This document shows, piece by piece, positions 2,332-30,851 of a DNA stretch of 41,534 nt; the first letter of the stretch is position 1; each line of letters begins with the position of its first letter. The DNA comes from a virus (Duplodnaviria > Caudoviricetes), in the IMG/VR virus record IMGVR_UViG_3300027653_000027, positions 1 to 41,534 of that record. One strand, given 5' to 3'. The position numbers and the translations under genes were made by a program. Below the pieces are notes generated by a model. The model saw only the letters and a program-made list of their open reading frames with translations. It was not told the origin of the DNA and searched no databases.

Positions 2332-2360
2332 TTGACACGTTATAAAACATGTAGTAGTAT
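2332..2360 (+). promoter_or_regulatory. sigma70 early promoter
   Basis: TTGACA-17 nt-TAGTAT with upstream AT tract, heading the early ORF cluster. Confidence 0.7.
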
Positions 2361-2390
2361 TCTCTTTACATTCACTATTGAGGAGTAAAC

Positions 2391-2531
2391 ATGTGTCCGC
2401 TATCATTTGATCACTACAGTAACGCTGATGCCTATAGCAACCTTACAGAGAGTATTAAGGACAATGACACCAAACGTATCCATAGATATTTGGATACCCT
2501 TAGAATTCTTTATTCCCAACAGGAGAATTAA
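2391..2531 (+). CDS. small hypothetical protein (46 aa)
   Basis: GAGGAG RBS; MCPLSFDHYSNADAYSNLTESIKDNDTKRIHRYLDTLRILYSQQEN; below the ORF-track cutoff. Confidence 0.6.
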   Translation: MCPLSFDHYSNADAYSNLTESIKDNDTKRIHRYLDTLRILYSQQEN

Positions 2532-2533
2532 AT

Positions 2534-3010
2534 ATGAAAGTAAATATTGGCCCTTATGAAGATGAAGATCGTATTATAGAGATTGAAATTGATAGTTACG
2601 ACACATGGAACTTAGACCATACATTCTCTCTTATAGCCATTCCTTTGTTGGAGAAGTATAAGGAAGATGTTCTCAAGGATAGGTTCATTCCCTCTGGCAA
2701 TGGAGATGTACATTATCTTCCAGATGATGACGATGAAGCTGAGGAAAAGAATAATGAATGGATAGAGATTATTGATAAAATGATCTATGCTTTTAAGGGG
2801 GTTGTGGACAATCCAGATTTCATTGTAGATTATGATTCTATTTCTCATGAAGAGGCTAGAGAGAAGGGATACGATCTGATAGATGGAGAAGACTTAGGAC
2901 TCGATATTTCCCCTTTCTATGTTGACAGAGAAGCTCAACGAATACATGACAGTCGTGTGAGAGAAGGATTGGAATTGTTTGGTAAATACTTTCGACATCT
3001 TTGGACATAA
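2534..3010 (+). CDS. conserved phage hypothetical protein
   Basis: AGGAG RBS; DTWNLDHT and GLELFGKYFRHLW motifs typical of a phage hypothetical family. Confidence 0.8.
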   Translation: MKVNIGPYEDEDRIIEIEIDSYDTWNLDHTFSLIAIPLLEKYKEDVLKDRFIPSGNGDVHYLPDDDDEAEEKNNEWIEIIDKMIYAFKGVVDNPDFIVDYDSISHEEAREKGYDLIDGEDLGLDISPFYVDREAQRIHDSRVREGLELFGKYFRHLWT

Positions 3011-3046
3011 AGACAACATCTTTAGACTTGATAGGAGGAAATTAAA

Positions 3047-3430
3047 ATGAAGAAAGAAGGTAATGATTTACAAAACACTACCCCTTTCCCTGTAGGAGAT
3101 ATTATCTTTGCAGATATTAAGGGGGATGATGTTTGGGAAGAAGTGAAAGTGCTGGGGTATGGAAAACATGGCGAAGACCTTTGCATTATGTTTTGTCAGA
3201 TGGAGGATGGAGAAGAATCTGAGCTACATGCACAGATATACACACATTATGAACCTTACTTCTCTGCTGTCCCTAAAGAAAGGGATGTTGCAGAATGTAT
3301 CTCCACACATTTAGTCCAACAATGGGTAGACTCCCCTCTTAGCCTGCAAGAATATATTAAATCCCTTTATGAAAAAGGCTACTTGAATTCATATGCCATT
3401 TTAAATGACTTCACCAAGGAGGAATATTAA
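3047..3430 (+). CDS. hypothetical protein, shares a domain with 6762-7388
   Basis: AGGAGG RBS; GYGKHGEDLCIMFC motif. Confidence 0.8.
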   Translation: MKKEGNDLQNTTPFPVGDIIFADIKGDDVWEEVKVLGYGKHGEDLCIMFCQMEDGEESELHAQIYTHYEPYFSAVPKERDVAECISTHLVQQWVDSPLSLQEYIKSLYEKGYLNSYAILNDFTKEEY

Positions 3431-3433
3431 TTA

Positions 3434-3640
3434 ATGTATTTTGTTCTATACAATATTAAACATAGGTATTATTACCATGAGACAGACTACTCTGCTCTTT
3501 GTGTTCAGGATGCTACACAATACTCTCTAAGTCTTATTGCTGAAGATGTAGCTGAAACATTGAATGAGGCTAATGGTAAAGGTAAAGTAGAATGGATTGT
3601 TGTTCCAATCAGTGATAGCTATTTTGATAGCATGGTATAA
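3434..3640 (+). CDS. hypothetical protein
   Basis: AGGAGG RBS, tightly packed 68-aa ORF. Confidence 0.7.
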   Translation: MYFVLYNIKHRYYYHETDYSALCVQDATQYSLSLIAEDVAETLNEANGKGKVEWIVVPISDSYFDSMV

Positions 3641-3691
3641 TGCCAACACAGTTGGCATTAAGATTAGAAATTCTATTTAAGGAGATATATT

Positions 3692-3994
3692 ATGCGTAAA
3701 GAATACAGAGATACAGTGGATGAGATCATGGACTACTTCGATTTCAATGGTCTTCTATCAGTTATGAAATCTATATCTTTTGGGTGGGTTAAAGAGGACA
3801 CCATGGAAGGAGAGTTACGTCAGCTTGGACGTAGGCTACTAATGACTGTAGCTGAACACTTATGTAAACATGGAGAGGAAGGATCGGAATATTACGCCTC
3901 TTCTGGTGGATTAGAGGCTAAGGGTGTGATTGAAAGAGGGAAGTTGTATTTAGAGCTTAAAGATGGTCTGTTCTCTTGGGACAATTACAATTGA
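3692..3994 (+). CDS. hypothetical protein
   Basis: AAGGAG RBS, 100 aa. Confidence 0.75.
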   Translation: MRKEYRDTVDEIMDYFDFNGLLSVMKSISFGWVKEDTMEGELRQLGRRLLMTVAEHLCKHGEEGSEYYASSGGLEAKGVIERGKLYLELKDGLFSWDNYN

Positions 3995-4012
3995 TATCTT
4001 AAGGAGGAGAAA

Positions 4013-4171
4013 ATGAAAGTAACAATTAGTTCAGAAGGTGTTCTTATTATTAGTGCTGAGTCTTCAATGGAAAACTATGCCATTAGTCAGTGGTATGATT
4101 CTCAATGCAATGAACTTACTAATCCATCTTCATTGATGATTGATATTGATCTTTATGACGAAGAGGAATGA
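4013..4171 (+). CDS. small acidic hypothetical protein (52 aa)
   Basis: AGGAGG RBS; MKVTISSEGVLIISAESS...DLYDEEE; not in the ORF track. Confidence 0.65.
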   Translation: MKVTISSEGVLIISAESSMENYAISQWYDSQCNELTNPSSLMIDIDLYDEEE

Positions 4172-4175
4172 TGGA

Positions 4176-4601
4176 ATGTTTGATAAGATTAAAGGAGTGA
4201 TTAAGAGCTTCATTAAGGATGCTGACAAAGAATCCACCAAGGATAGCCACAAAGATGAACAAGGTTTCTCTCCTTCTATTGGGGACTCTATATGGGGAAA
4301 CTCTTTGGCACATATCCATGAGATGGGGGCAGTGGTAACCTTTGAAGAGGAGGTGGAAGAAGAAGGTCTTTATCTGTACAGGTTTATTGATAAAGAAGGG
4401 ATGGAGGAATGTTACGGAAAGATGTGTGATGGGGTGGGTGTTAGTGTAATTGACACAGGGGATTTTTACAGCTATGGTGTATTCTTCTATACAGACACTC
4501 CTAAGTTAGCTGTTCCTATCTGTTTTATCCAAGATAAAGACAAGGGTGTCGAAAGGGATATTTTACAGAAATTGGGGATTAATGTGGTGAGTGTTCATTG
4601 A
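4176..4601 (+). CDS. hypothetical protein
   Basis: Start moved to ATG 4176 (MFDKIK) behind GAGG; in frame with track ORF 4140-4601. Confidence 0.7.
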   Translation: MFDKIKGVIKSFIKDADKESTKDSHKDEQGFSPSIGDSIWGNSLAHIHEMGAVVTFEEEVEEEGLYLYRFIDKEGMEECYGKMCDGVGVSVIDTGDFYSYGVFFYTDTPKLAVPICFIQDKDKGVERDILQKLGINVVSVH

Positions 4602-4612
4602 GGGAATATTGA

Positions 4613-4726
4613 ATGATTATTAAGCCAATGTTACCAGCTTCTGTGGAAGATTTATCTGCTGTCCCTGTGCTGATAAGGGCGGATGAAGTAGATTCCAGTG
4701 TAGAGTGGGTGGTGGAGGGTGTATGA
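4613..4726 (+). CDS. 37-aa ORF, possible N-terminal remnant of an ATP-dependent DNA ligase
   Basis: MIIKPMLPASVEDLSAVPVL...; ATGA overlap with the next gene; KPML start resembles phage ligases but there is no KxDG. Confidence 0.35.
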   Translation: MIIKPMLPASVEDLSAVPVLIRADEVDSSVEWVVEGV

Positions 4727-5358
4727 AAACTATATGTGTAGAACGAAGTGAAATAAAAGCATTTGTAGAAGAACACCATTACTCTGGGAACATAAATGGT
4801 GTTAAGTCCACTTATTGTTTTGGCTTGTATAAAGATGGGATATTAAAAGGGGCGTCAATATTTGGTATGCTCTCCACAACTGCATGGAAGAAATATGGGG
4901 AGACAGAAAAAGATGTAATAGAACTTCGAAGGCTTGTGACACTGCCCAACCTCCCTGCCAACACTCTGAGTAAGTTTGTTGCAGAGTGTATTCGATATAT
5001 TAAACAACACAGTGAATTTAAAGTGGTGGTAAGTTACGCCGACCCTTACTATGGACATCATGGTGGGATATACCAAGCGTGTAATTTTCTGTATTTAGGA
5101 GAGACTCCCAAAGACACTATTCTTAGGGATAAGCATACAGGTAAAAGCTACCATTCAAGGGCAATGAGAACAAAGTACAAAGGGGAGTTAAAACCTTTTG
5201 CACGAAGGTTAAAAGAGCAGTATGATAAAGGCGAATTAGAGATTGTCACAGTACCGGGTAAACATATTTATGTATATCCTTTGAAAAAGACTCACCGTAA
5301 AAGATTTATAAATATTAGCCTAACATACCCGCGCCCATCACAGGAGGAAGAGAGATGA
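4723..5358 (+). CDS. Mom-family (GNAT-fold) DNA base modification protein
   Basis: Motifs HHYSG, FGL..G.L.G..IFG, ELRRL, NTLSKFVA, VVSYADPYYGHHGGIYQACNFLYLG; GGAGG RBS before ATG 4723. Confidence 0.8.
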   Translation: MKTICVERSEIKAFVEEHHYSGNINGVKSTYCFGLYKDGILKGASIFGMLSTTAWKKYGETEKDVIELRRLVTLPNLPANTLSKFVAECIRYIKQHSEFKVVVSYADPYYGHHGGIYQACNFLYLGETPKDTILRDKHTGKSYHSRAMRTKYKGELKPFARRLKEQYDKGELEIVTVPGKHIYVYPLKKTHRKRFINISLTYPRPSQEEER

Positions 5359-11420: not shown

Positions 11421-11495
11421 TGGTGGGCCATGGTGGAATCAAACCACCCTCTACCTGTTATGAGCAGGCGGCTTTCATCAGTAAGCTAATGGCCC
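11421..11495 (-). tRNA. tRNA with CAU anticodon, probably Ile2 (lysidine) rather than Met
   Basis: Cloverleaf GGGCCAT/ATGGCCC-ACCA, loop CTCATAA; G1-C72 argues against fMet; C4-G69 and C5-G68 are TilS determinants; T-loop variant TTTGA. Confidence 0.85.
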
Positions 11496-11534: not shown

Positions 11535-12110
11535 TTAGGGGATACCATTTTCCTGCCTCAGTCTCCATATCTTGCTTCTGTCTATTCCAAGTTCATCTGA
11601 TATCTTGTAATCAGACATACCCTCCTTCCTAAATACACCTATTTTAGTCAAAAGCTCTTCCGGTATCTCCATCCTCTTTTTCCCTAACCAGACTCCTTTA
11701 GCCCTGCTATAGAGAGCATTGCAACGTCTGCTACAAAATTTATTAAAATTTATCCTGATTTTACTTTTTTCTCTGAGGAAAGGGGCGTTGCAATGGTCGC
11801 AAACCAATTCCAAGAAAACTCTTCCCGCACTTTCTTTTCGAGTTTTCTCTCGATGCTCTTCTACCGTTAAAGCTTGAAGATTAGAAAGACAGTCATTTGT
11901 CTTGTCACCATCTATATGGTCAACCTCGTATCCATCTTCTAACATCCTTCCTTGATTAACAGAGAACAAATATCTCGCATAAGAAGTTGTTGTTCTATCG
12001 CTGTTGGAATTGAAAAGATATACCATCTTCCTTCCCTCACTTCCTACTCTCAGGTACCCTACTTTCCAGAGAGACTTGTAAGGCTCCTGTAATTCTATCT
12101 TACTACTCAC
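11535..12110 (-). CDS. free-standing HNH homing endonuclease within the tRNA cluster
   Basis: VDHIDGDKTNDCLSNL...EH, CxxC...FCSRRC zinc finger, C-terminal HTH; AGGAGG RBS. Confidence 0.9.
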   Translation of the reverse strand: MSSKIELQEPYKSLWKVGYLRVGSEGRKMVYLFNSNSDRTTTSYARYLFSVNQGRMLEDGYEVDHIDGDKTNDCLSNLQALTVEEHREKTRKESAGRVFLELVCDHCNAPFLREKSKIRINFNKFCSRRCNALYSRAKGVWLGKKRMEIPEELLTKIGVFRKEGMSDYKISDELGIDRSKIWRLRQENGIP

Positions 12111-12152: not shown

Positions 12153-12228
12153 CGTTCCTAGCTGGATTCGAACCAGCAACCTACGGCTTAGAAGGCCGTT
12201 GCTCTAATCCTGATTGAGCTACAGGAAC
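12153..12228 (-). tRNA. tRNA-Arg(UCU), no encoded CCA
   Basis: GTTCCTG/TAGGAAC acceptor, anticodon loop CTTCTAA, GGTTCGAATCC T-arm. Confidence 0.95.
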
Positions 12229-12253: not shown

Positions 12254-12329
12254 TGGAGCGTCTGGAGGAATTTGAATCCTCACTTTCAGGGTGGAAGCCT
12301 GACGTGCTAACCATTAACACCACAGACGC
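12254..12329 (-). tRNA. tRNA-Gly(UCC)
   Basis: GCGTCTG/CAGACGC-TCCA acceptor, anticodon loop CTTCCAC. Confidence 0.93.
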
Positions 12330-15171: not shown

Positions 15172-15789
15172 ATGAGGATGAATGATATTGAGATGAAGCC
15201 GTCACAGGTGATTGTTCGTAGTATCCAGCACACAGAATATAATCTATACCTTCACGGAGAGATTGGCAGTCCAGATGATTTCATGGAGCATTTTGCTGTA
15301 TTTAAAACAGCCGGTGAAGGGGATTTGATTAGGTTGTATATCAATAGTCCAGGAGGAAGTCTGAGTACAGGTCAGCAATTGATTACACACATGAGAGAGT
15401 GTCAAGCATATATTGTTGCTGTCCTTGGTGTAGAAGTGGCTTCTATGGCCTCCGCCATTGCTCTTGAAGCTGATGAGGTAGAAATTGATGAGTTATCTAC
15501 AATGCTCGTCCATTCCCTGAGTTACAGAGTAGGAGGAACTGAAAACAGTGTCTACACGCAAGCATTATTCAATAATAAACTTAACGAGCGATGGGTGAAG
15601 TCTACATACGGAGACTTTCTAACAGAGACTGAATTGGGCGATATTCTCAAAGGGGTGGATATTATCCTTGATGCCGAACAGATAGCTGAACGATGGAATG
15701 CACGACAGCAGAGCCGATGTGGATGTGAGCATTGTTTGGATGAGAGTGAAGAAATCTCAGAATATCAGGAAGGGGATACTAAGTGTTAG
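15172..15789 (+). CDS. ClpP-like serine protease
   Basis: LYLHGEIG, LYINSPGG, VASMAS (catalytic Ser), MLVH. Confidence 0.85.
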   Translation: MRMNDIEMKPSQVIVRSIQHTEYNLYLHGEIGSPDDFMEHFAVFKTAGEGDLIRLYINSPGGSLSTGQQLITHMRECQAYIVAVLGVEVASMASAIALEADEVEIDELSTMLVHSLSYRVGGTENSVYTQALFNNKLNERWVKSTYGDFLTETELGDILKGVDIILDAEQIAERWNARQQSRCGCEHCLDESEEISEYQEGDTKC

Positions 15790-17419: not shown

Positions 17420-17601
17420 ATGTAAGTTTTTAGCAGGTGACAAGAATTTGCAAGTTCTTCACATTGCTCACCCAATGTGATAGCCTGCGCTTTAATATAA
17501 GCCTTGGAGTAGTTCTGAGGCTTGATTCCTTTGAGGAGGTTGTCAAAATAAGGGAGGAGGAAGAGTTGAAATATTATGGATGGAATAGAGAGTAGGGAGG
17601 G

Positions 17602-19632
17602 TTGGTGGAAGAATACGATGTAATAGGGCCAGCATCTCCTTTCCAAGAAAAATATCTAAACGCAGATGAACAGATGCTTTTTGTAGGGGGTGCTGCGGGA
17701 TCGTCTAAAAGCTATATTGGATTGATGAGGCATCTTAGATTCGTCGAAGACCCTAATTATAAGGCATACTGCATTCGTAAGAATTCAAGTGCCATTATGT
17801 CTTCAGGGGGTCTGTTCGATGAAGCTGTAGAACTTTACAGAAAGTATGACCCTAAAATTAAGATAAAATTGCGGGATCAAAAAGTAATATTCTCTTCTGG
17901 AGCTGAGATAACATTCTCTCACTACGAGAATGATCAAGCAGCTAATAAATACCAAGGTAAATTATATTGCCTGACGTAGTGGTGACATTACGTTGTAACT
18001 CGGTTAATTCGGGGGAACTCTTTAGAAGACAACCCCGAGCGAAGCCTCTACAAGAGGAACGTGTAAAGACCACCTGCAAGGGTAGGGCCAAGCGGCCTGA
18101 AACACCGAGCATGTCTCTGACATGAAGATATGGTCTAATCTACATAGCAATATGTAGCAGCGAAAGCGAGAATGGGTTAGCGACCTATTCTGAATAAAAT
18201 GATTCAAATTTCAAACGTGTTCTTTGACGAAGTTTCACATACTTCGGAAGAAAGCATTTGGTGGCTTTGGTCTCGTCTTAGGTCAAGAGCTAAGAATGTC
18301 CATTCGTTGACAATGACAATGAACCCTGACCCAGATAACTGGACGCTTAAATATGCGATGTGGTATTTATATCCAGAAGGACATGAATTAGCTGGACGCC
18401 CTGACCCCGAGAAGAATGGGAAGGTGAGATATCTTCTTAGAATTGGGGGAGATATTGTATGGGGAGACACAAGAGAAGAACTTCAGGAAAAGTATGGCTA
18501 TGATAAGTCACCCATATCTTTTAGAGCTTTGTTCGGGACTATTGATGATAACCCTCCGCTTCAGTTGAGCAACCCTAGCTACCGTCAGAATCTTGAAGCC
18601 CTGCCTACGGTGGAGCGAGAGCGGTTGCTATACGGAAACTGGTTTGCAAGACCAGCTAATTCATCCTACTATAAACGAGAAGACCTAACAGAAATCGTAG
18701 AAGTTCCTCCTGATTCTGACTTCTCTAAAATAGTAAGGGCTTACGACTTTGCTGGGACATTGCCCCACGATGGTAACAAAGAGACTGACTACTTTGCTTC
18801 TGTAAAAATGGGTAAGCTCCATACAGGGGATTATGTCATTCTTGAAGTCGTCAGAACAAGAATTACATTCGGTGATTGGGAACAACACATTCTTGACAAT
18901 GCTTTCAGAGATGGGAATAAAGTGGAGATTATTCTCCCTCAAGACCCCAACGCAGCAGCAAAGGCTGCAACATCTTTGTTAGCCAGAAGCATTATTGAGC
19001 ATGGGTATATTGTAAGAACCAAACGCTCAAGCATGGGTAAGTTGGATTCCTTCAGACCTTTTGCAGCAGCAGTGGAGAATGGAAACGTTTCTCTGGTTAA
19101 AGGATGTGCTACAGACCTATGGAATAAAGTATATAACGATAATGACTTCTTCCACAAAGAGCTTGAAGCCTTTGATGGCAAGAGAAGAGGCGGGCAACAC
19201 CATGACGATGAGATAACACTAGGTCGTCAATAAACTGGCTGAATTCGGTGGACAACTCTAGTAGAATTATTAGAGTCAATACCGAGCCAAGCCTCACAAC
19301 AGTGAGGAAGGTTTAGAGACTATTATGTAGGGTCAAGTGACTCGAAGCGGCCAGCAATCACTTAGGTGGTTGAAGATATAGTCCAATCTGCATGGCGACA
19401 TGCAGCAATCTCAAAATAGTCTAAATTCTGCGGTAATTAATAGTAAAATAGGGGAAAGACTAAAGGAGATTGGGCGTAGCCTAACGAACTACGTTTAATA
19501 CAAATGATGGTGGACTGCTGTTCATTAGCATTTTCAACACTGGCACAAAGAGTGCATATTCCCAGCTTCATTGGTGGCCTGTCCTCAGCAGATTTGAGAC
19601 AGCCCAATCCTTTCAGAAGCAGTGCCCTCTAA
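17602..19632 (+). CDS. terL: terminase large subunit, three exons: 17602-17958, 18202-19209, 19507-19632 (~496 aa)
   Basis: Walker A GGAAGSSKS; spliced junctions restore YQG|IQISNVFFDE (Walker B) and HDD|MVD (nuclease); TMNP and RAYD motifs. Confidence 0.93.
17959..18201 (+). mobile_element. group I intron 1 in terL (243 nt, no ORF)
   Basis: Exon ends in U with P1 AGGU/GCCU; P AATTCGGGGGAA, Q AACCCCGAGC, R GTAAAGACCA, S AAGATATGGTCT; terminal G18201; frame restored. Confidence 0.92.
19210..19506 (+). mobile_element. group I intron 2 in terL (297 nt, no ORF)
   Basis: P1 GACGAU/GUCGUC with U-G; P AATTCGGTGGA, Q AATACCGAGC, R TTAGAGACTA, S AAGATATAGTCC; P3 CTGGC/GCCAG; terminal G19506. Confidence 0.94.
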
Positions 19633-19649
19633 ATTAAAAGGAGAAAGAG

Positions 19650-21498
19650 TTGGCTGAAAATACAGACGATACGCTCTCCTCTGGAACGGAGGGGGTGTCT
19701 CTTACTAAGGGGGACAATGAAATCCCCCCTCTTGCTTTAGGAGAGAAAGGCTTCATTGGGTTGAAAGTCCTTGGGGGACAAATCCTTGAGGAATGCCAAC
19801 ATGAATTGATGTGGCCACAATGTATTGATACATACAAGAAGATGGCTAAAGATGGGACTATTGCTCCCGCTCTTGAACTTGTGGAAATGATGATTTCAAG
19901 AGTTCCTTGGCATGTGACAATCCCTGAAGGATATGAAGAAGAGCTTGCGGAGAAGGCTGAATTCTTACGTCAAAACATGAGGGACATGGAGCATAGCTGG
20001 AATGATTTTATTAAACAAGCTCTATCATTCCATAGATATGGGTTCTGTGTCAATGAGAAAGTATATAGATACAGACGTAAGGATAAGGGTAGTAAATACA
20101 ATGATGGTCTAATTGGCATCAAGAAGCTCCCCATCCGTTCTCAAGACACCATTACGGACTGGGTGTTCAAGAATAAGGGAAGAGAGCTTGCTGGACTACA
20201 TCAAGAAGTGTATGTTCCTACAAACTCTCTCAGAGGACAAAATGCCACATCTCTGTATGTAAAAGATTCCTATACAAGACAAGAAAAATATATTCCAAGG
20301 AAGAAATTCCTATTGTTCAGAAACAATCCTCTGAAGGATAGCCCCATTGGAATGAGTTGTCTGAATGGCGCATGGCAGGCTTGGAAGTATAAACAGTCTT
20401 ATCAGGAAGCTGAAGCGTTGGCGGTTAATTAGTAGCCGCACTTGCCAGTAACGGTAAGTTAAAAATTCATCTAATTGCTGGAAAGCCTGCAAAGGTGATC
20501 AGCAGCGAAGGTAATGGTGAAACAAGATACATAACAAATAGAGTCTACCCAAGAATTCAGTATTTTGTTTTAATTACAACGTCCAACGACTATCCCGAAA
20601 GGGAGTAGACTACAAGCTATTGGTAGTTGAAACGGTGAAACCCCTAACGACAAAGACGAGGGGTAAGATATAGTCTGGTCTACAAGGAGACTTGTAGCAG
20701 CTCTTAGAGAGCGGGGAGAGGGTAGCGACCTCTCCTGAACATAAACGAGCGCATGATAGCAACGGCTTTAAAGTGCTATACCTCCCACCCCAATATATGG
20801 CAGAAGATGCCACCCCTGAGAACAAAGCTGTATACGAGCATTATAAGTCTATGCTTATGGCAGCCAGTAGGGGGGAGCTTACATCTTTCATTCTTCCACT
20901 GATTATGGATGGGGAAGGCAATGAGATGTTTAAGTTTGATATCAAGTCTGTCACAGGAAACAAGACATACGATATCAATACCATCATTGGAAGGTATGCT
21001 AACGAAATCCTCACCAGCTTGTTCGCTGACTTCCTTACATTGGGAAGTGAAGGGGGCGGCAGCTACAGTCTTGCAGAATCCAAAGTAAGCATTGTTGAAA
21101 TGGCTATTCAAGCCAAACTGGACGAGCTTCAGGATCAAATCAATCATGACCTTGTGAAGCAACTGTTTGAGCTGAACGGGTGGGATACAGATGTGATGCC
21201 CGAAATTAGGTATGGTCAGATCACTAAGCCCAGTCTCGATGAAGTGAGTAAGTGGGTTCAGAGAGTGTCTGCTACAGGCAATCTTCCCAAGAATAGGGAA
21301 ACTCTTAATTGGATTCTCTCTACTGCTGACATCCCTTACAGAATTCCTAAGAGCATGTCCGAGGAAGAAATAAAAGATATGCTTTCTGATGACACCAGTA
21401 GAAGTGGGGACGGTATGACCTCTGGTTTAGGTAGTGGTGTAGGAGATGTCACTGGGGGCGAAGGAGATAGTTCTGTAGGGAATGTGGAAAATGCTTGA
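19650..21498 (+). CDS. portal protein, two exons: 19650-20425 and 20748-21498 (~508 aa)
   Basis: Between TerL and the prohead protease; YGFCVNEKVY and GSYSLAESK motifs; splice gives EALAV-AHDSNGFKVLYLPP in frame. Confidence 0.9.
20426..20747 (+). mobile_element. group I intron in the portal gene (322 nt, no ORF)
   Basis: P1 GCGGU/GCCGC with U-G; P AATTGCTGGAA, Q ATCAGCAGC, R TCCAACGACTA, S AAGATATAGTCT; terminal G20747; GT+A rejoins as Val. Confidence 0.92.
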
Positions 21499-27949: not shown

Positions 27950-28708
27950 ATGTCAAAACCAAGTATATTTATAGGGGACAAGTTTGTTTCTAAAAACGGG
28001 CAAGTTTGTGAAGTAGTTGAGTACATCAACTCCAGTAAGGTGTTTGTTAGGTTCGAGAACGGTTATGTCGGGCCATATTCGGCGGGTAACTTAAGAAAGG
28101 GTGAGTTTAGTAATCCACTATTCCCGAATGTCTGTGGTATAGGTTACCTCGGCATCGGAGAGTTCAAGATTAGTGAGCGCGGTAAGAAAACCTATGCCTA
28201 CAAGAAATGGAACCATATGATTGAAAGGTGTTATGGAAGCACCCAAGAGAGGTATGCCCCCACGTATGCAGGATGTTCTGTTGAACCGATCTGGCATAAC
28301 TTCCAGAACTTCGCCGCTTGGATTAAAACTCAGAAAGGTTATGGGAAGAGTGGTTGGCACTTGGATAAGGATATCATCTGTCCCGGAAATAAAGTTTACG
28401 GACCAGAAAAATGTAGTCTTGTCCCAGCTGCTGTAAATACATTCTTTTCTAAGCCAAGAAGAGGTAATGACCTACCAGTAGGCGTAAATCGCTCGCTGAA
28501 TAAATATACAGCAGAAGCTAGGTTCTTGAATAAAACTACCCACTTGGGGACGTTCTCTACACCAGATGATGCACACTCGGCGTTCTTACAATTCAAGAAA
28601 TCTTCAACAGTGAAGCTTATTGAACTGTTTAGGGAAGATTTAGAACCGAAGATTTTGGAGGCGCTGACGTTTTATGCAAAAGAAGGTTTCCCTTATGAAA
28701 AGCTTTAA
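27950..28708 (+). CDS. free-standing HNH-type homing endonuclease with C-terminal AP2-like domain
   Basis: WNHMIERCY, WHNFQNFAAW, WHLDKDII...YGPEKC..VP..VN, LPVGV, HLGTF.TP..AH. Confidence 0.9.
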   Translation: MSKPSIFIGDKFVSKNGQVCEVVEYINSSKVFVRFENGYVGPYSAGNLRKGEFSNPLFPNVCGIGYLGIGEFKISERGKKTYAYKKWNHMIERCYGSTQERYAPTYAGCSVEPIWHNFQNFAAWIKTQKGYGKSGWHLDKDIICPGNKVYGPEKCSLVPAAVNTFFSKPRRGNDLPVGVNRSLNKYTAEARFLNKTTHLGTFSTPDDAHSAFLQFKKSSTVKLIELFREDLEPKILEALTFYAKEGFPYEKL

Positions 28709-28748: not shown

Positions 28749-29270
28749 ATGTCTGCAAATCTGTTGTCTACTTACTCTCCCGAAGCAGTAAGTATTATTA
28801 TTGGGAATGATCAGTTTAGTCATGTAGTGACTGGTGTTGCCGAAGAAACCTTCATCACCATCTCAAGGGAAACTCCCGCCACCCAGTTGGTTATTGGTGG
28901 TGATATGAGTGCTATGCGCATTCGTCGGCGGAACAGGTCTTCTACTATCACCATTACGTTGATGCAAGGAAGTAATTCCAACGATGTGTTTAGTCAAATC
29001 TTGAAGAATGACGAAGACGCAATGAACAACGACTGGTTGTTCCATGTAACCATTAAGGATGGTAGTGGGCGTTCTGTATTCTTCAGTCCTCAAGCTTATA
29101 TCGCCAACATGCCTGACATTAGTTTTGGCACAGAAGGTGATAACAGGGATTGGGTGATACAGTGTATCGACCTTGATGCCCACGTAGGTGGTGGTGCCCT
29201 CCTTACACCGGAGAACTCTACCACTCTGGAAGATGTTGGTTATCCCGTTCCCCCCGGTTGGTTGACTTAA
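28749..29270 (+). CDS. tail tube protein (DUF3277-like)
   Basis: TYSPEAV, ITLMQGSNSNDV, IKDGSG, RDWVI. Confidence 0.85.
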   Translation: MSANLLSTYSPEAVSIIIGNDQFSHVVTGVAEETFITISRETPATQLVIGGDMSAMRIRRRNRSSTITITLMQGSNSNDVFSQILKNDEDAMNNDWLFHVTIKDGSGRSVFFSPQAYIANMPDISFGTEGDNRDWVIQCIDLDAHVGGGALLTPENSTTLEDVGYPVPPGWLT

Positions 29271-29273
29271 TGT

Positions 29274-29304
29274 ATAGGGGGCTTCGTGCCCCTATTTTTC
29301 TTTC
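29274..29304 (+). terminator. intrinsic terminator after the tail tube gene
   Basis: ATAGGGG...CCCCTAT stem followed by TTTTCTTT. Confidence 0.75.
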
Positions 29305-29319
29305 TCTAAAGGAATAACA

Positions 29320-29808
29320 ATGAATTTATGGACGTATAGCCCTGAAGAAGTAGTGGTCCTTGTTATGGGGGTTCCTTTGGAGGGTATGGAAGAAGAGGGG
29401 TTTGTCTCTATTAGGAGGGATTCTCCTCTCTTCACTTCTACCTCCACTACAGATGGAAGGGTGGTGAGGGCATACAAACCTAATGATATTTGGGAAATAC
29501 GATTCAACCTCTTGCAAGCAAGCCCCTCTAATGGGTTTCTTAATAAGTTGATGCTTATTGACAGGCTTACAAAAAGAGGGAAGTTTCCTTTGATGATTAA
29601 GGATGGTATGGGAGGGACATTGGCATTCTCTACAAGTACATGGATAGAAGAGCCTCCAGAGGTGGTGTATGGGGTGGAGAATGAGGGAAGGGAGTGGGTG
29701 TTAAGGAGTGCAAACACTGTCATTAATATTGAGGGTAATGTAGGACAAACAGAGCTTGCAGCGGATGCCCTAAACACCATTATTGGAGCCATCCCCGGCT
29801 TATTGTGA
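29320..29808 (+). CDS. tail tube-like structural protein
   Basis: TYSPEEV, LLQASPSN, IKDGMG, REWVL: paralogous to 28749-29270. Confidence 0.75.
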   Translation: MNLWTYSPEEVVVLVMGVPLEGMEEEGFVSIRRDSPLFTSTSTTDGRVVRAYKPNDIWEIRFNLLQASPSNGFLNKLMLIDRLTKRGKFPLMIKDGMGGTLAFSTSTWIEEPPEVVYGVENEGREWVLRSANTVINIEGNVGQTELAADALNTIIGAIPGLL

Positions 29809-29817
29809 GGAATGTAA

Positions 29818-30294
29818 ATGAGCACTCTTACATACAGCCCTGATAAAGTATCCCTGATATTTGGTGGGTATCAGGTAGAAGGTTGGAATAAAATCACCAT
29901 TGAAAGAAATACAGAATTTGTAAAACAGATTAGGGGGATAAGAGGAAAGAATTCTAAGGAAGTGGGCAGGGACACAAGCTGTACAATAGTGCTGTCCACA
30001 CCACAAGCGATGGAAGTGAATACAATCCTCTCCTTAATCTTAAAGAATGAAGAAGAAACAAAGGGGAAAGTTAGGCTCGAAATATCCTTGAAAGACGACT
30101 CTGGTAAGTCTATATTCACATCTATAGAGTGTTATATAGGAGGGTGGCCCAAGGTGGAATACACCGACACACTTACAGACGTAGAATGGAAGTTTTTGTG
30201 TGACAGCTCGGAGTGGAATATTACAGGAAGTGAGGCTAACAGAAACTCTCTTGTGGATATGATAAATGGCTCTATTGGCCAATTGTTTAGTTAA
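29818..30294 (+). CDS. tail tube-like structural protein
   Basis: TYSPDKV, LKDDSG, VEWKF: second paralog. Confidence 0.75.
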   Translation: MSTLTYSPDKVSLIFGGYQVEGWNKITIERNTEFVKQIRGIRGKNSKEVGRDTSCTIVLSTPQAMEVNTILSLILKNEEETKGKVRLEISLKDDSGKSIFTSIECYIGGWPKVEYTDTLTDVEWKFLCDSSEWNITGSEANRNSLVDMINGSIGQLFS

Positions 30295-30309: not shown

Positions 30310-30612
30310 ATGAGCGAAGAATTTAAAGAAATTAGTGTAGACGGCGAAGATTATATCCTGCGACTTATGCCTGCAATGGAAGGTTTGGACTTCATGACCC
30401 GAATGGAGAAAGAGGGCATGACCGGAGCCTTGATCTTTAAGGCAGTGAGGGATTGTGTTGCTATCGGTAGCACTACCTTTGATGAAAAGAAGTTTAACAA
30501 CCACTTCAAAGGTAAATATGGCCATCTGATGAGAGTAGTTGAGAAGGTTGTTGAATTCAACTTCCCCGACCTATATCAGGGAAACGAACAAAGCGATTCA
30601 GAAGAAGAATAA
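30310..30612 (+). CDS. tail assembly chaperone
   Basis: 100 aa before the tape measure gene; slippery G GGA AAC at 30579-30585. Confidence 0.8.
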   Translation: MSEEFKEISVDGEDYILRLMPAMEGLDFMTRMEKEGMTGALIFKAVRDCVAIGSTTFDEKKFNNHFKGKYGHLMRVVEKVVEFNFPDLYQGNEQSDSEEE

Positions 30613-30851
30613 AATCTGGATCGCCCTCACAAAACCCCAGACTAAAAATAATTGAAAAAGAGTTTAGCGGCAATTATGATGTAATGAGGGTGATATTCTC
30701 TACAGATAATCCCATAGAAACCTTGTACAACCTTCACTACAAGTATCCCACAAAGCTATTCTATGATTACATAGAGTATCTTGATGTTCATGAGGAACTT
30801 AAGTCTGTGGCTAAGAAGGAGAGCGAGGACAGGGCTAAGAAGGCAAAATAA
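30579..30851 (+). CDS. -1 frameshift extension of the tail assembly chaperone (fusion ~180 aa)
   Basis: -1 frame open from GGGAAAC to TAA 30849-30851 (GKRTKRFRRRIKSGSP...YDYIEYLDVHEELK...KAK); analogous to lambda G-T. Confidence 0.75.
   Translation, partial: GKRTKRFRRRIKSGSPSQNPRLKIIEKEFSGNYDVMRVIFSTDNPIETLYNLHYKYPTKLFYDYIEYLDVHEELKSVAKKESEDRAKKAK

What the first reader, a model, noticed from the sequence alone, without database searches (positions are those of the whole stretch)
17602..21498. Three ORF-less group I introns clustered in the DNA-packaging genes (two in terL, one in portal)
Seen: all three have a U-G 5' splice pair in P1, P/Q/R/S cores, a terminal G and exact frame restoration (17959-18201, 19210-19506, 20426-20747). 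The terL introns sit just before Walker B (YQG|IQISNVFFDE) and inside the nuclease HDD|MVD motif. Introns 1 and 3 share a 3' hairpin with a TAGCGACC segment, which suggests relatedness. Known: phage group I introns occur mostly in nucleotide-metabolism and replication genes, with some in terminase; a portal intron is uncommon to my knowledge. Inference: packaging depends on three splicing events, a possible timing checkpoint. Automated annotation would wrongly fragment these genes.
Basis: partly seen in the sequence, partly recalled or inferred. Interest (0 to 1): 0.8.

Follow-up and report, generated by a model that had tools for sequence, protein, structure and literature searches.

The report
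Three self-splicing introns, phage packaging genes
Three self-splicing (group I) introns interrupt this uncultured phage's terminase (twice) and portal genes, and RNA assemblies show both terminase junctions joined exactly, but near-identical strains lack the portal intron or carry longer versions, so these are likely ordinary selfish introns that lost their mobility genes rather than a timing switch.

Summary
Observation confirmed. All three intervals are Rfam group I introns (78-82 bits, cut-off 50). Contigs from two metatranscriptome runs (one study) join both terL junctions to the base; two DNA runs do not. No exact spliced join was seen for the portal intron. The interpretation mostly fails. 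Introns 1 and 3 are not close kin (53% core identity, rank 50 of 59); each groups with introns at its own site in other phages, and the 3' loop motif is family-wide. A checkpoint is unlikely: close strains have intron-less portal alleles, and 77 of 116 TerL clusters have no scored intron. Close strains carry a ribosome site plus ORF inside intron 2 and a long insert inside intron 3, so the window's copies are probably homing introns that lost their endonuclease genes. The 2+1 layout already exists in cultured Pseudomonas phage KIL1, and portal introns occur in cultured Vibrio phages. This scan has noted portal introns in other genomes several times. I found no paper describing one. Verdict: new members of a known kind, with useful RNA support.

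The parts
17602..17958 (+). terL exon 1 (ATPase N-part with Walker A GGAAGSSKS; ends YQG). Start may be TTG 17602 or GTG 17605
   Evidence: phrog_979 terminase large subunit, PF03237; alignment
17959..18201 (+). Group I intron 1 (IA2-like, ORF-less, phase 0 after G119). P3 17999-18004/18104-18109, P4 18009-18014/18033-18038, P7 18068-18072/18131-18135 (GACCA/UGGUC, a compensatory variant), P7.2, P9, P9.2
   Evidence: RF00028 81.9 bits; helices; RNA join 17958->18202 in runs X14 and X18
18202..19209 (+). terL exon 2 (Walker B VFFDE to nuclease HDD)
   Evidence: phrog_979, PF03237, PF17289
19210..19506 (+). Group I intron 2 (IA2-like, ORF-less, phase 0 after D455). 19410-19470 is the loop where close strains and relatives carry an endonuclease ORF
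   Evidence: RF00028 82.2 bits; RNA join 19209->19507 in X14 and X18; RBS+ATG loose end at 19419 in X2; same RBS+ATG in KIL1, L035, L085, L126, L209
19507..19632 (+). terL exon 3 (MVD... to stop; carries invariant D458)
19650..20425 (+). portal exon 1
   Evidence: phrog_113 portal, PF06074
20426..20747 (+). Group I intron 3 (IA2-like, ORF-less, phase 2 in V259). P6 loop 20516-20572 is where related portal introns carry an HNH ORF
   Evidence: RF00028 77.8 bits; elements; HNH_3 ORFs in L013, L068; long insert before 20574 in X14
20748..21498 (+). portal exon 2
   Evidence: phrog_113, PF06074; alignment

Best explanation
Three group I introns interrupt terL (twice) and the portal gene; they likely cut themselves out of the late transcript, and they are likely independently acquired selfish elements that have lost the homing-endonuclease genes which spread them, with no regulatory job. 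Shown: ribozyme cores, splice sites, frame restoration, exact exon joins for both terL introns in RNA contigs, patchy presence among strains, ORF-bearing versions at or beside two of the three sites. Inferred from established group I chemistry: an external guanosine attacks after the U-G pair of P1, then exon 1 attacks after the terminal G. Inferred history: intron 2 arrived with an HNH-type ORF in the P9.1 region and intron 3 with one in P6; both ORFs were deleted in this lineage. Intron 1, whose site never held an ORF in my sample, probably spread by co-conversion with a neighbouring endonuclease gene. They persist because only a precise deletion leaves these essential genes working.
For: Cores: P7 pairs in 100% of cells, P3 99%, P4 94% over 60 introns with many compensatory changes, against 20-57% for slid partners. 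Splicing: joins 17958->18202 and 19209->19507 in both RNA runs, in neither of two DNA runs, whose contigs run through intron 1. Independence: intron 1 is nearest to site-119 introns (68-72%), intron 2 to site-455 introns (72%), intron 3 to the L013 portal intron (63%); 1 vs 3 is 53%. Dispensable: intron-less portal DNA alleles in X4 (one 4,496-nt contig) and X2 (depth 81.5, beside an intron-plus contig at 12.7); site 119 filled in 8 of 115 scorable clusters, site 455 in 15 of 116, portal 256-261 in 3 of 108; 7 sites are mixed within a 95% cluster. Lost ORFs: loose end GAGAATTTCTATG at 19419 in X2 and 574 extra nt before 20574 in X14; 7 of 19 site-455 introns and 3 of 5 portal introns hold ORFs of 100+ codons that match HNH families; KIL1's portal intron keeps only a ribosome site and a stub.
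Against: The RNA joins come from contigs of one study with no matched DNA run, so an intron-less terL strain in those samples is not excluded. No exact RNA join was seen for intron 3; the one RNA loose end there (X18, 20422) looks like an intron-less allele. Only 30 letters of the extra ORFs in close strains were visible, so calling them endonucleases rests on analogy. No sequence remnant of an ORF is detectable by blastn in the window's loops. An upstream endonuclease gene is not enriched with ATPase-half introns (19 of 27 vs 17 of 31, p = 0.28) and the window has none. Sites are not uniformly in the most conserved stretches (10-residue window percentiles: site 119, 28th; site 455, 87th; portal 258, 64th). 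39 of 116 clusters holding some intron is high for a neutral passenger.
Confidence: 0.78

Rival explanations
1. Protective alleles in phage-phage conflict (collaborative or trans homing): the ORF-less introns are kept because they break the target of endonucleases encoded beside terL or inside related introns, making the carrier immune to cutting in co-infection.
For: 0 of 35 introns at ATPase-half sites (30-128) hold an ORF, yet these sites recur widely. An HNH/homing endonuclease gene abuts terL in 36 of 58 loci examined. Close strains X14, X4 and X2 have an extra stretch with RBS+ATG inserted at about 17523-17550, just upstream of terL. Precedent: PMC3984707 and PMC2988022 (passages).
Against: No enrichment of the upstream gene with introns (p = 0.28); at least five endonuclease families fill that slot; no cut site is known; the window itself lacks the gene.
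Confidence: 0.12
2. Timing checkpoint: splicing of three introns delays packaging until GTP or translation state is right.
For: All three lie in one co-oriented packaging block; unspliced RNA would give 125-aa, 462-aa or 260-aa truncations. Translation-dependent splicing of T4 introns and a 'molecular switch' hypothesis are discussed in PMC11878797.
Against: Intron-less portal alleles in near-identical strains; 77 of 116 clusters without a scored intron, and no other cluster with both site 119 and site 455 filled; introns of separate origin. In SIOphi terL only spliced transcripts were seen in vivo (PMC11878797, passage).
Confidence: 0.07
3. Dead or non-splicing inserts, or an assembly artefact; the RNA joins come from intron-less strains.
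For: No matched DNA for the RNA runs; no RNA join for intron 3.
Against: Intact cores and splice sites; the introns are present in DNA contigs of other studies; genes are essential and would be truncated; intron 1 letters are also present in RNA run X14.
Confidence: 0.03

Closest known systems
Group I introns in terL of Bastillevirinae phages (SIOphi, phiAGATE; PMC11878797, passages and sections 4, 19)
   Same: terL split by two or three group I introns; splicing shown in vitro and in vivo; the switch-versus-selfish debate is the same.
   Different: Bacillus herelleviruses; the main text has 0 occurrences of 'portal'; its supplementary table of known phage introns could not be read.
Pseudomonas phage vB_PsyM_KIL1 (KU130126) and KIL2-5
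   Same: Two terL introns plus one portal intron; one at the identical DD| site; GenBank joins terL and portal from two pieces.
   Different: Its other terL intron is at residue 232, its portal intron 7 nt downstream (after residue 261); its DD| intron keeps a 178-aa HNH-type ORF. The paper PMC4791379 has 0 occurrences of 'intron'. KIL2-5 were seen only as blastn matches to intron 2.
Subgroup IA2 phage introns (T4 td/nrdB/sunY, Twort)
   Same: P7.1/P7.2 between P7 and P3', extended P9 domain; blastn matches to T4-like nrdB introns. The IA2 label for these is recalled.
   Different: Host genes; intron 2 has only a vestigial P7.1; subgroup-specific models were not available.
Vibrio phages 184E37.3a (MW824372) and F93 (OZ196653)
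   Same: Portal gene split by a group I-type intron (profile hit 73 bits).
   Different: Site near residue 330, keeps an HNH ORF; not annotated as an intron; below Rfam's gathering score because the ORF splits the core.
Introns in virion genes: mycobacteriophage LittleE capsid and BAKA tail (PMC3706429), crAss-like MCP (PMC7886860), Jug phage terL (PMC12880540)
   Same: Late structural genes carry group I introns, with and without ORFs; Jug terL splicing was shown from metatranscriptomes as here.
   Different: None of the passages read names a portal intron; Jug portal genes are called 'fragmented and/or divergent' without a stated cause.

Membership tests
Group I intron (RF00028) | Covariance-model score above the curated cut-off | tested here: met
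   81.9, 82.2, 77.8 bits vs 50
Group I intron (RF00028) | P3-P7 pseudoknot core, P4-P6, G-C pair of the guanosine site in P7 | tested here: met
   P7 100%, P3 99%, P4 94% paired over 60 introns; first P7 pair G-C in 60 of 60
Group I intron (RF00028) | U-G pair at the 5' splice site in P1 and terminal G | tested here: met
Group I intron (RF00028) | Removed from RNA with exact exon ligation | tested here: inconclusive
   Exact joins for introns 1 and 2 in two RNA runs of one study, no matched DNA; none for intron 3
Group I intron (RF00028) | Protein-free, guanosine-dependent self-splicing | not testable with these tools
   needs an in vitro assay
Subgroup IA2 | P7.1 and P7.2 inserted between P7 and P3' | tested here: met
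   P7.2 91% paired over 60 introns; P7.1 clear in introns 1 and 3, vestigial in intron 2 (alignments). The definition is recalled.
Subgroup IA2 | Best score with the IA2 subgroup model | not testable with these tools
   subgroup models not held
Mobile (homing) group I intron | Endonuclease ORF in a peripheral loop | tested here: not met
   Longest ATG-started ORFs 11, 32 and 6 codons; met in relatives at sites 455 and portal
Collaborative homing pair (ORF-less intron + free-standing endonuclease) | Adjacent free-standing endonuclease gene | tested here: not met
   The genes upstream of the window's terL (149 and 140 aa) match no PHROG or Pfam family; close strains have an unidentified insert there
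Collaborative homing pair (ORF-less intron + free-standing endonuclease) | Endonuclease cuts at the intron insertion site | not testable with these tools
   needs cleavage mapping

The most novel reading that the evidence does not exclude
The terL-portal block of these Felixouna/PAK_P1-like myophages is an intron hotspot (about a dozen sites) split in two regimes: introns in the ATPase half never carry an endonuclease (0 of 35) and act as immunity cassettes against a swappable endonuclease gene butted against the terL start, while nuclease-half and portal introns carry their own. The packaging genes would then be an arena of phage-versus-phage cutting, visible as live polymorphism within one species.
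Probability: 0.2. Interest if true: 0.55.

Novelty: new member of a known kind. Interest (0 to 1): 0.3.

Why it matters
It fixes the annotation of two essential genes and adds the portal to the host genes of phage group I introns with several independent examples, some in cultured phages (KIL1, Vibrio 184E37.3a and F93) where splicing can be tested at once. Near-identical strains with and without the portal intron, and with and without the ORF in intron 2, offer a natural test of the unproven 'molecular switch' idea against plain selfishness. It does not reveal a new kind of element or control.

Tried and rejected
Relatedness of introns 1 and 3: rejected by identity ranks and tree. A fourth intron in the window: none. 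Alternative cut for intron 3 shifted by 4 nt: rejected on P1 and residue conservation. Exon skipping from intron 1's 5' site to intron 2's 3' site would be in frame (160 aa), but no such join is listed. Remnants of ORFs in the window's loops by blastn: only chance matches. The window's free-standing HNH genes as helpers: 27950-28708 is 31% identical to KIL1's intron ORF and 11535-12110 is weakly like the portal ORFs; they are far from the introns and nothing links them. Enrichment of an upstream endonuclease with ATPase-half introns: not significant. The L017/L019/L073/L236 contig is 99.96% identical to the window and L235 is the window itself, so neither was counted as independent support. 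The AlphaFold model of a homologous portal (pLDDT 64) puts the site at the end of a long helix next to a low-confidence stretch; it confirms the fold but says nothing on the intron. No solved TerL relative by sequence. A second read-laying, meant to look for intron-less terL alleles in further DNA runs, gave no result, so that question stays open. One paper on Staphylococcus jumbo phages (PMC8428398) was not held.

Full report
Setting. The window is a single 41,534-nt contig of an uncultured myophage: terminase, portal, protease, capsid, tail sheath and baseplate genes follow in order. The middle exon of TerL is 49-53% identical to Pseudomonas phages phiPMW, SYP and M1 and about 37% to Felixounavirus-type phages. 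A homologous portal matches solved portals of Pakpunavirus P7-1, Bas63 and Sf14. Near-identical DNA occurs in soil, compost and animal-faeces runs of several studies. The host is unknown.

Rfam finds three group I introns and no other ribozyme. Intron 1 follows G119 (G in 101 of 102 intron-less homologues), five codons before the Walker B stretch VFFDE. Intron 2 lies between D455 and D458, both D in 102 of 102; that this motif holds a catalytic acid of the nuclease is recalled. Intron 3 splits codon V259. I collected 60 distinct introns (57 from fetched loci, 3 from the window). About three quarters were delimited by a script that required U, G and a 3' loop motif, the rest by hand, so those three features are not independent evidence for the scripted ones. 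The inner helices were not used for selection: P7 pairs in 100% of cells, P3 in 99%, P4 in 94%, P7.2 in 91%, against 20-58% for slid partners. Intron 1 has a compensated P7 (GACCA/UGGUC). P7.1/P7.2 point to subgroup IA2 (label recalled).

Splicing. I laid 4 of the 24 listed runs: two metatranscriptomes of one study (X14, X18) and two DNA runs of other studies (X2, X4), all as contigs. Both RNA runs join 17958 to 18202 and 19209 to 19507, skipping 243 and 297 nt; neither DNA run shows these joins, and both DNA runs have contigs running through intron 1. X14 also covers intron 1 letters and shares variants with the intron-bearing DNA strains. This is good but not complete evidence: there is no DNA run of the same samples, the X18 joins have short sides (18 and 30 letters), and contigs cannot show strand or level. 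For intron 3 no exact RNA join is listed.

Population evidence. In DNA, X4 has a 4,496-nt contig that crosses the portal site with no intron and a changed codon. X2 has an intron-less allele (depth 81.5), an intron-plus contig like the window's (12.7) and a diverged intron variant (58.3). X2's intron 2 leaves the window sequence at 19419 into GAGAATTTCTATG and returns at 19452; the same ribosome site and ATG start the endonuclease ORFs of site-455 introns in KIL1, L035, L085, L126 and L209. X14 has 574 extra letters before 20574, in the P6 region of intron 3, where L013 and L068 carry HNH_3 ORFs. So two of the three introns look like deletion derivatives of ORF-bearing introns, and the third gene's intron is optional. 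Only 30 letters of each insert were shown.

Relatives. 264 loci were fetched; 240 hold the middle of TerL and fall into 116 clusters at 95% identity, the window included and KIL1 excluded because its middle is split. Site 119 is filled in 8 of 115 scorable clusters, site 455 in 15 of 116 (4 mixed), portal 256-261 in 3 of 108; 39 of 116 have some intron. The alignment-based scans kept the best 80 of 387 and of 300 hits, which favours uninterrupted genes, so these are not true frequencies. Introns occur at terL residues 30/31, 32, 34, 67, 119, 128, 232 and 455 and portal 256, 258, 261 and 326; three portal sites lie within 13 nt. KIL1 and L068 also have two terL introns and one portal intron. 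Vibrio phages 184E37.3a and F93 have a portal split near residue 330 by an intron with an HNH ORF, while the related 501E54-1 portal is whole.

Relatedness. On 211 core columns, intron 1 is closest to site-119 introns, intron 2 to site-455 introns and intron 3 to portal intron L013; introns 1 and 3 are 53% identical (rank 50 of 59), introns 1 and 2 62%. In the tree intron 3 groups (support 96) with the portal introns of KIL1 and L068 and two site-455 introns; the deeper branches are weakly supported. The shared TAGCGACC is one variant of a loop found throughout the set. The three introns did not arise by local copying.

ORF pattern. 0 of 35 introns at sites 30-128 hold an ORF, against 7 of 19 at site 455 (an eighth, L179, holds an endonuclease VII-type frame without ATG) and 3 of 5 in the portal. 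The introns are related, so no p-value is meaningful. I asked whether a free-standing endonuclease upstream of terL could move the ORF-less ones. Of 62 hand-picked loci, 4 were dropped (2 without upstream DNA, 1 duplicate, 1 not scanned). The abutting gene is an HNH/homing endonuclease in 19 of 27 loci with ATPase-half introns and 17 of 31 without (hand count; p = 0.28). The slot is common but not linked to the introns, and the window lacks it, although close strains have an insert there.

Mechanism, committed. Self-splicing from the late mRNA by the standard two-step group I reaction (inferred from the family; joins seen for two introns), with no regulatory role; origin by homing, then loss of the endonuclease ORFs (0.78). 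Protection in endonuclease conflicts (0.12), a checkpoint (0.07) and dead inserts (0.03) are the rivals.

[quoted passage not shown] An HNH-bearing terL intron was confirmed by RT-PCR in phage KASIA (PMC8541194, passages). Terminases are named as typical targets, and collaborative homing is described, in PMC3984707 and PMC2988022 (passages). Introns in capsid and tail genes are in PMC3706429 and PMC7886860, and metatranscriptome-supported terL splicing in PMC12880540 (passages). PMC12350094 (passages) has no mention of portal. PMC4791379 on KIL phages (passages) does not mention introns. Searches for a portal group I intron (listings only, most hits not opened) showed none, but the library lacks most subscription papers. 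Earlier notes of this scan report portal introns in at least 8 other genomes (unchecked AI notes).

Verdict. Real, well placed and partly backed by RNA; new members of a known kind. The portal location is under-reported but recurrent. Interest 0.3.

Noticed in passing
window 17701-17707 (run X2); L084:4020-5000: A close strain has 1,001 letters in place of 5 inside Walker A (net 996, in frame). L084 has an open in-frame insert at the same GGAAG|S site that starts with C and ends with N, so both are likely inteins.
   Followed up: partly
window 17523-17550 (runs X14, X4, X2): Close strains carry an insert beginning with a ribosome site and ATG just upstream of terL; in relatives this slot often holds a homing endonuclease gene (36 of 58 loci).
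   Followed up: partly
window 20385 vs L073: A second, 99.96% identical assembly has T for A here, making a TAG stop in portal exon 1; probably an assembly error.
   Followed up: no
L001 (KU130126) 2340-4870: GenBank joins KIL1 terL exons 1 and 2 but ends the gene at a stop inside the second intron, losing the last exon; the intron's endonuclease is labelled hypothetical.
   Followed up: yes
L266, L267 (MW824372, OZ196653): Unannotated HNH-bearing group I intron in the portal gene of cultured Vibrio phages; missed by Rfam at the gathering score.
   Followed up: partly
window 27950-28708 (+) and 11535-12110 (-): Two free-standing HNH genes: one between tail sheath and tail tube genes, one among tRNAs.
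   Followed up: partly
window 11424-11495, 12153-12228, 12257-12329 (-): Three tRNA genes, anticodons CAU, UCU and UCC as read from the alignments.
   Followed up: no
window 28749-30294: Three tandem paralogues of phrog_280 (virion structural, likely tail tube).
   Followed up: no
window 30310-30850: Tail assembly chaperone followed by an overlapping open frame up to the tape measure gene; possible programmed frameshift or a small separate gene.
   Followed up: no
window 4705-5358 and 15172-15789: Mom-like DNA modification protein (phrog_1384) and ClpP-like protease (phrog_1827).
   Followed up: no
L179:5021-5705, L181 site 455: Two site-455 introns group with portal introns rather than with other site-455 introns, and L179 carries an endonuclease VII-type ORF in a different loop: a second invasion of the same site.
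   Followed up: partly
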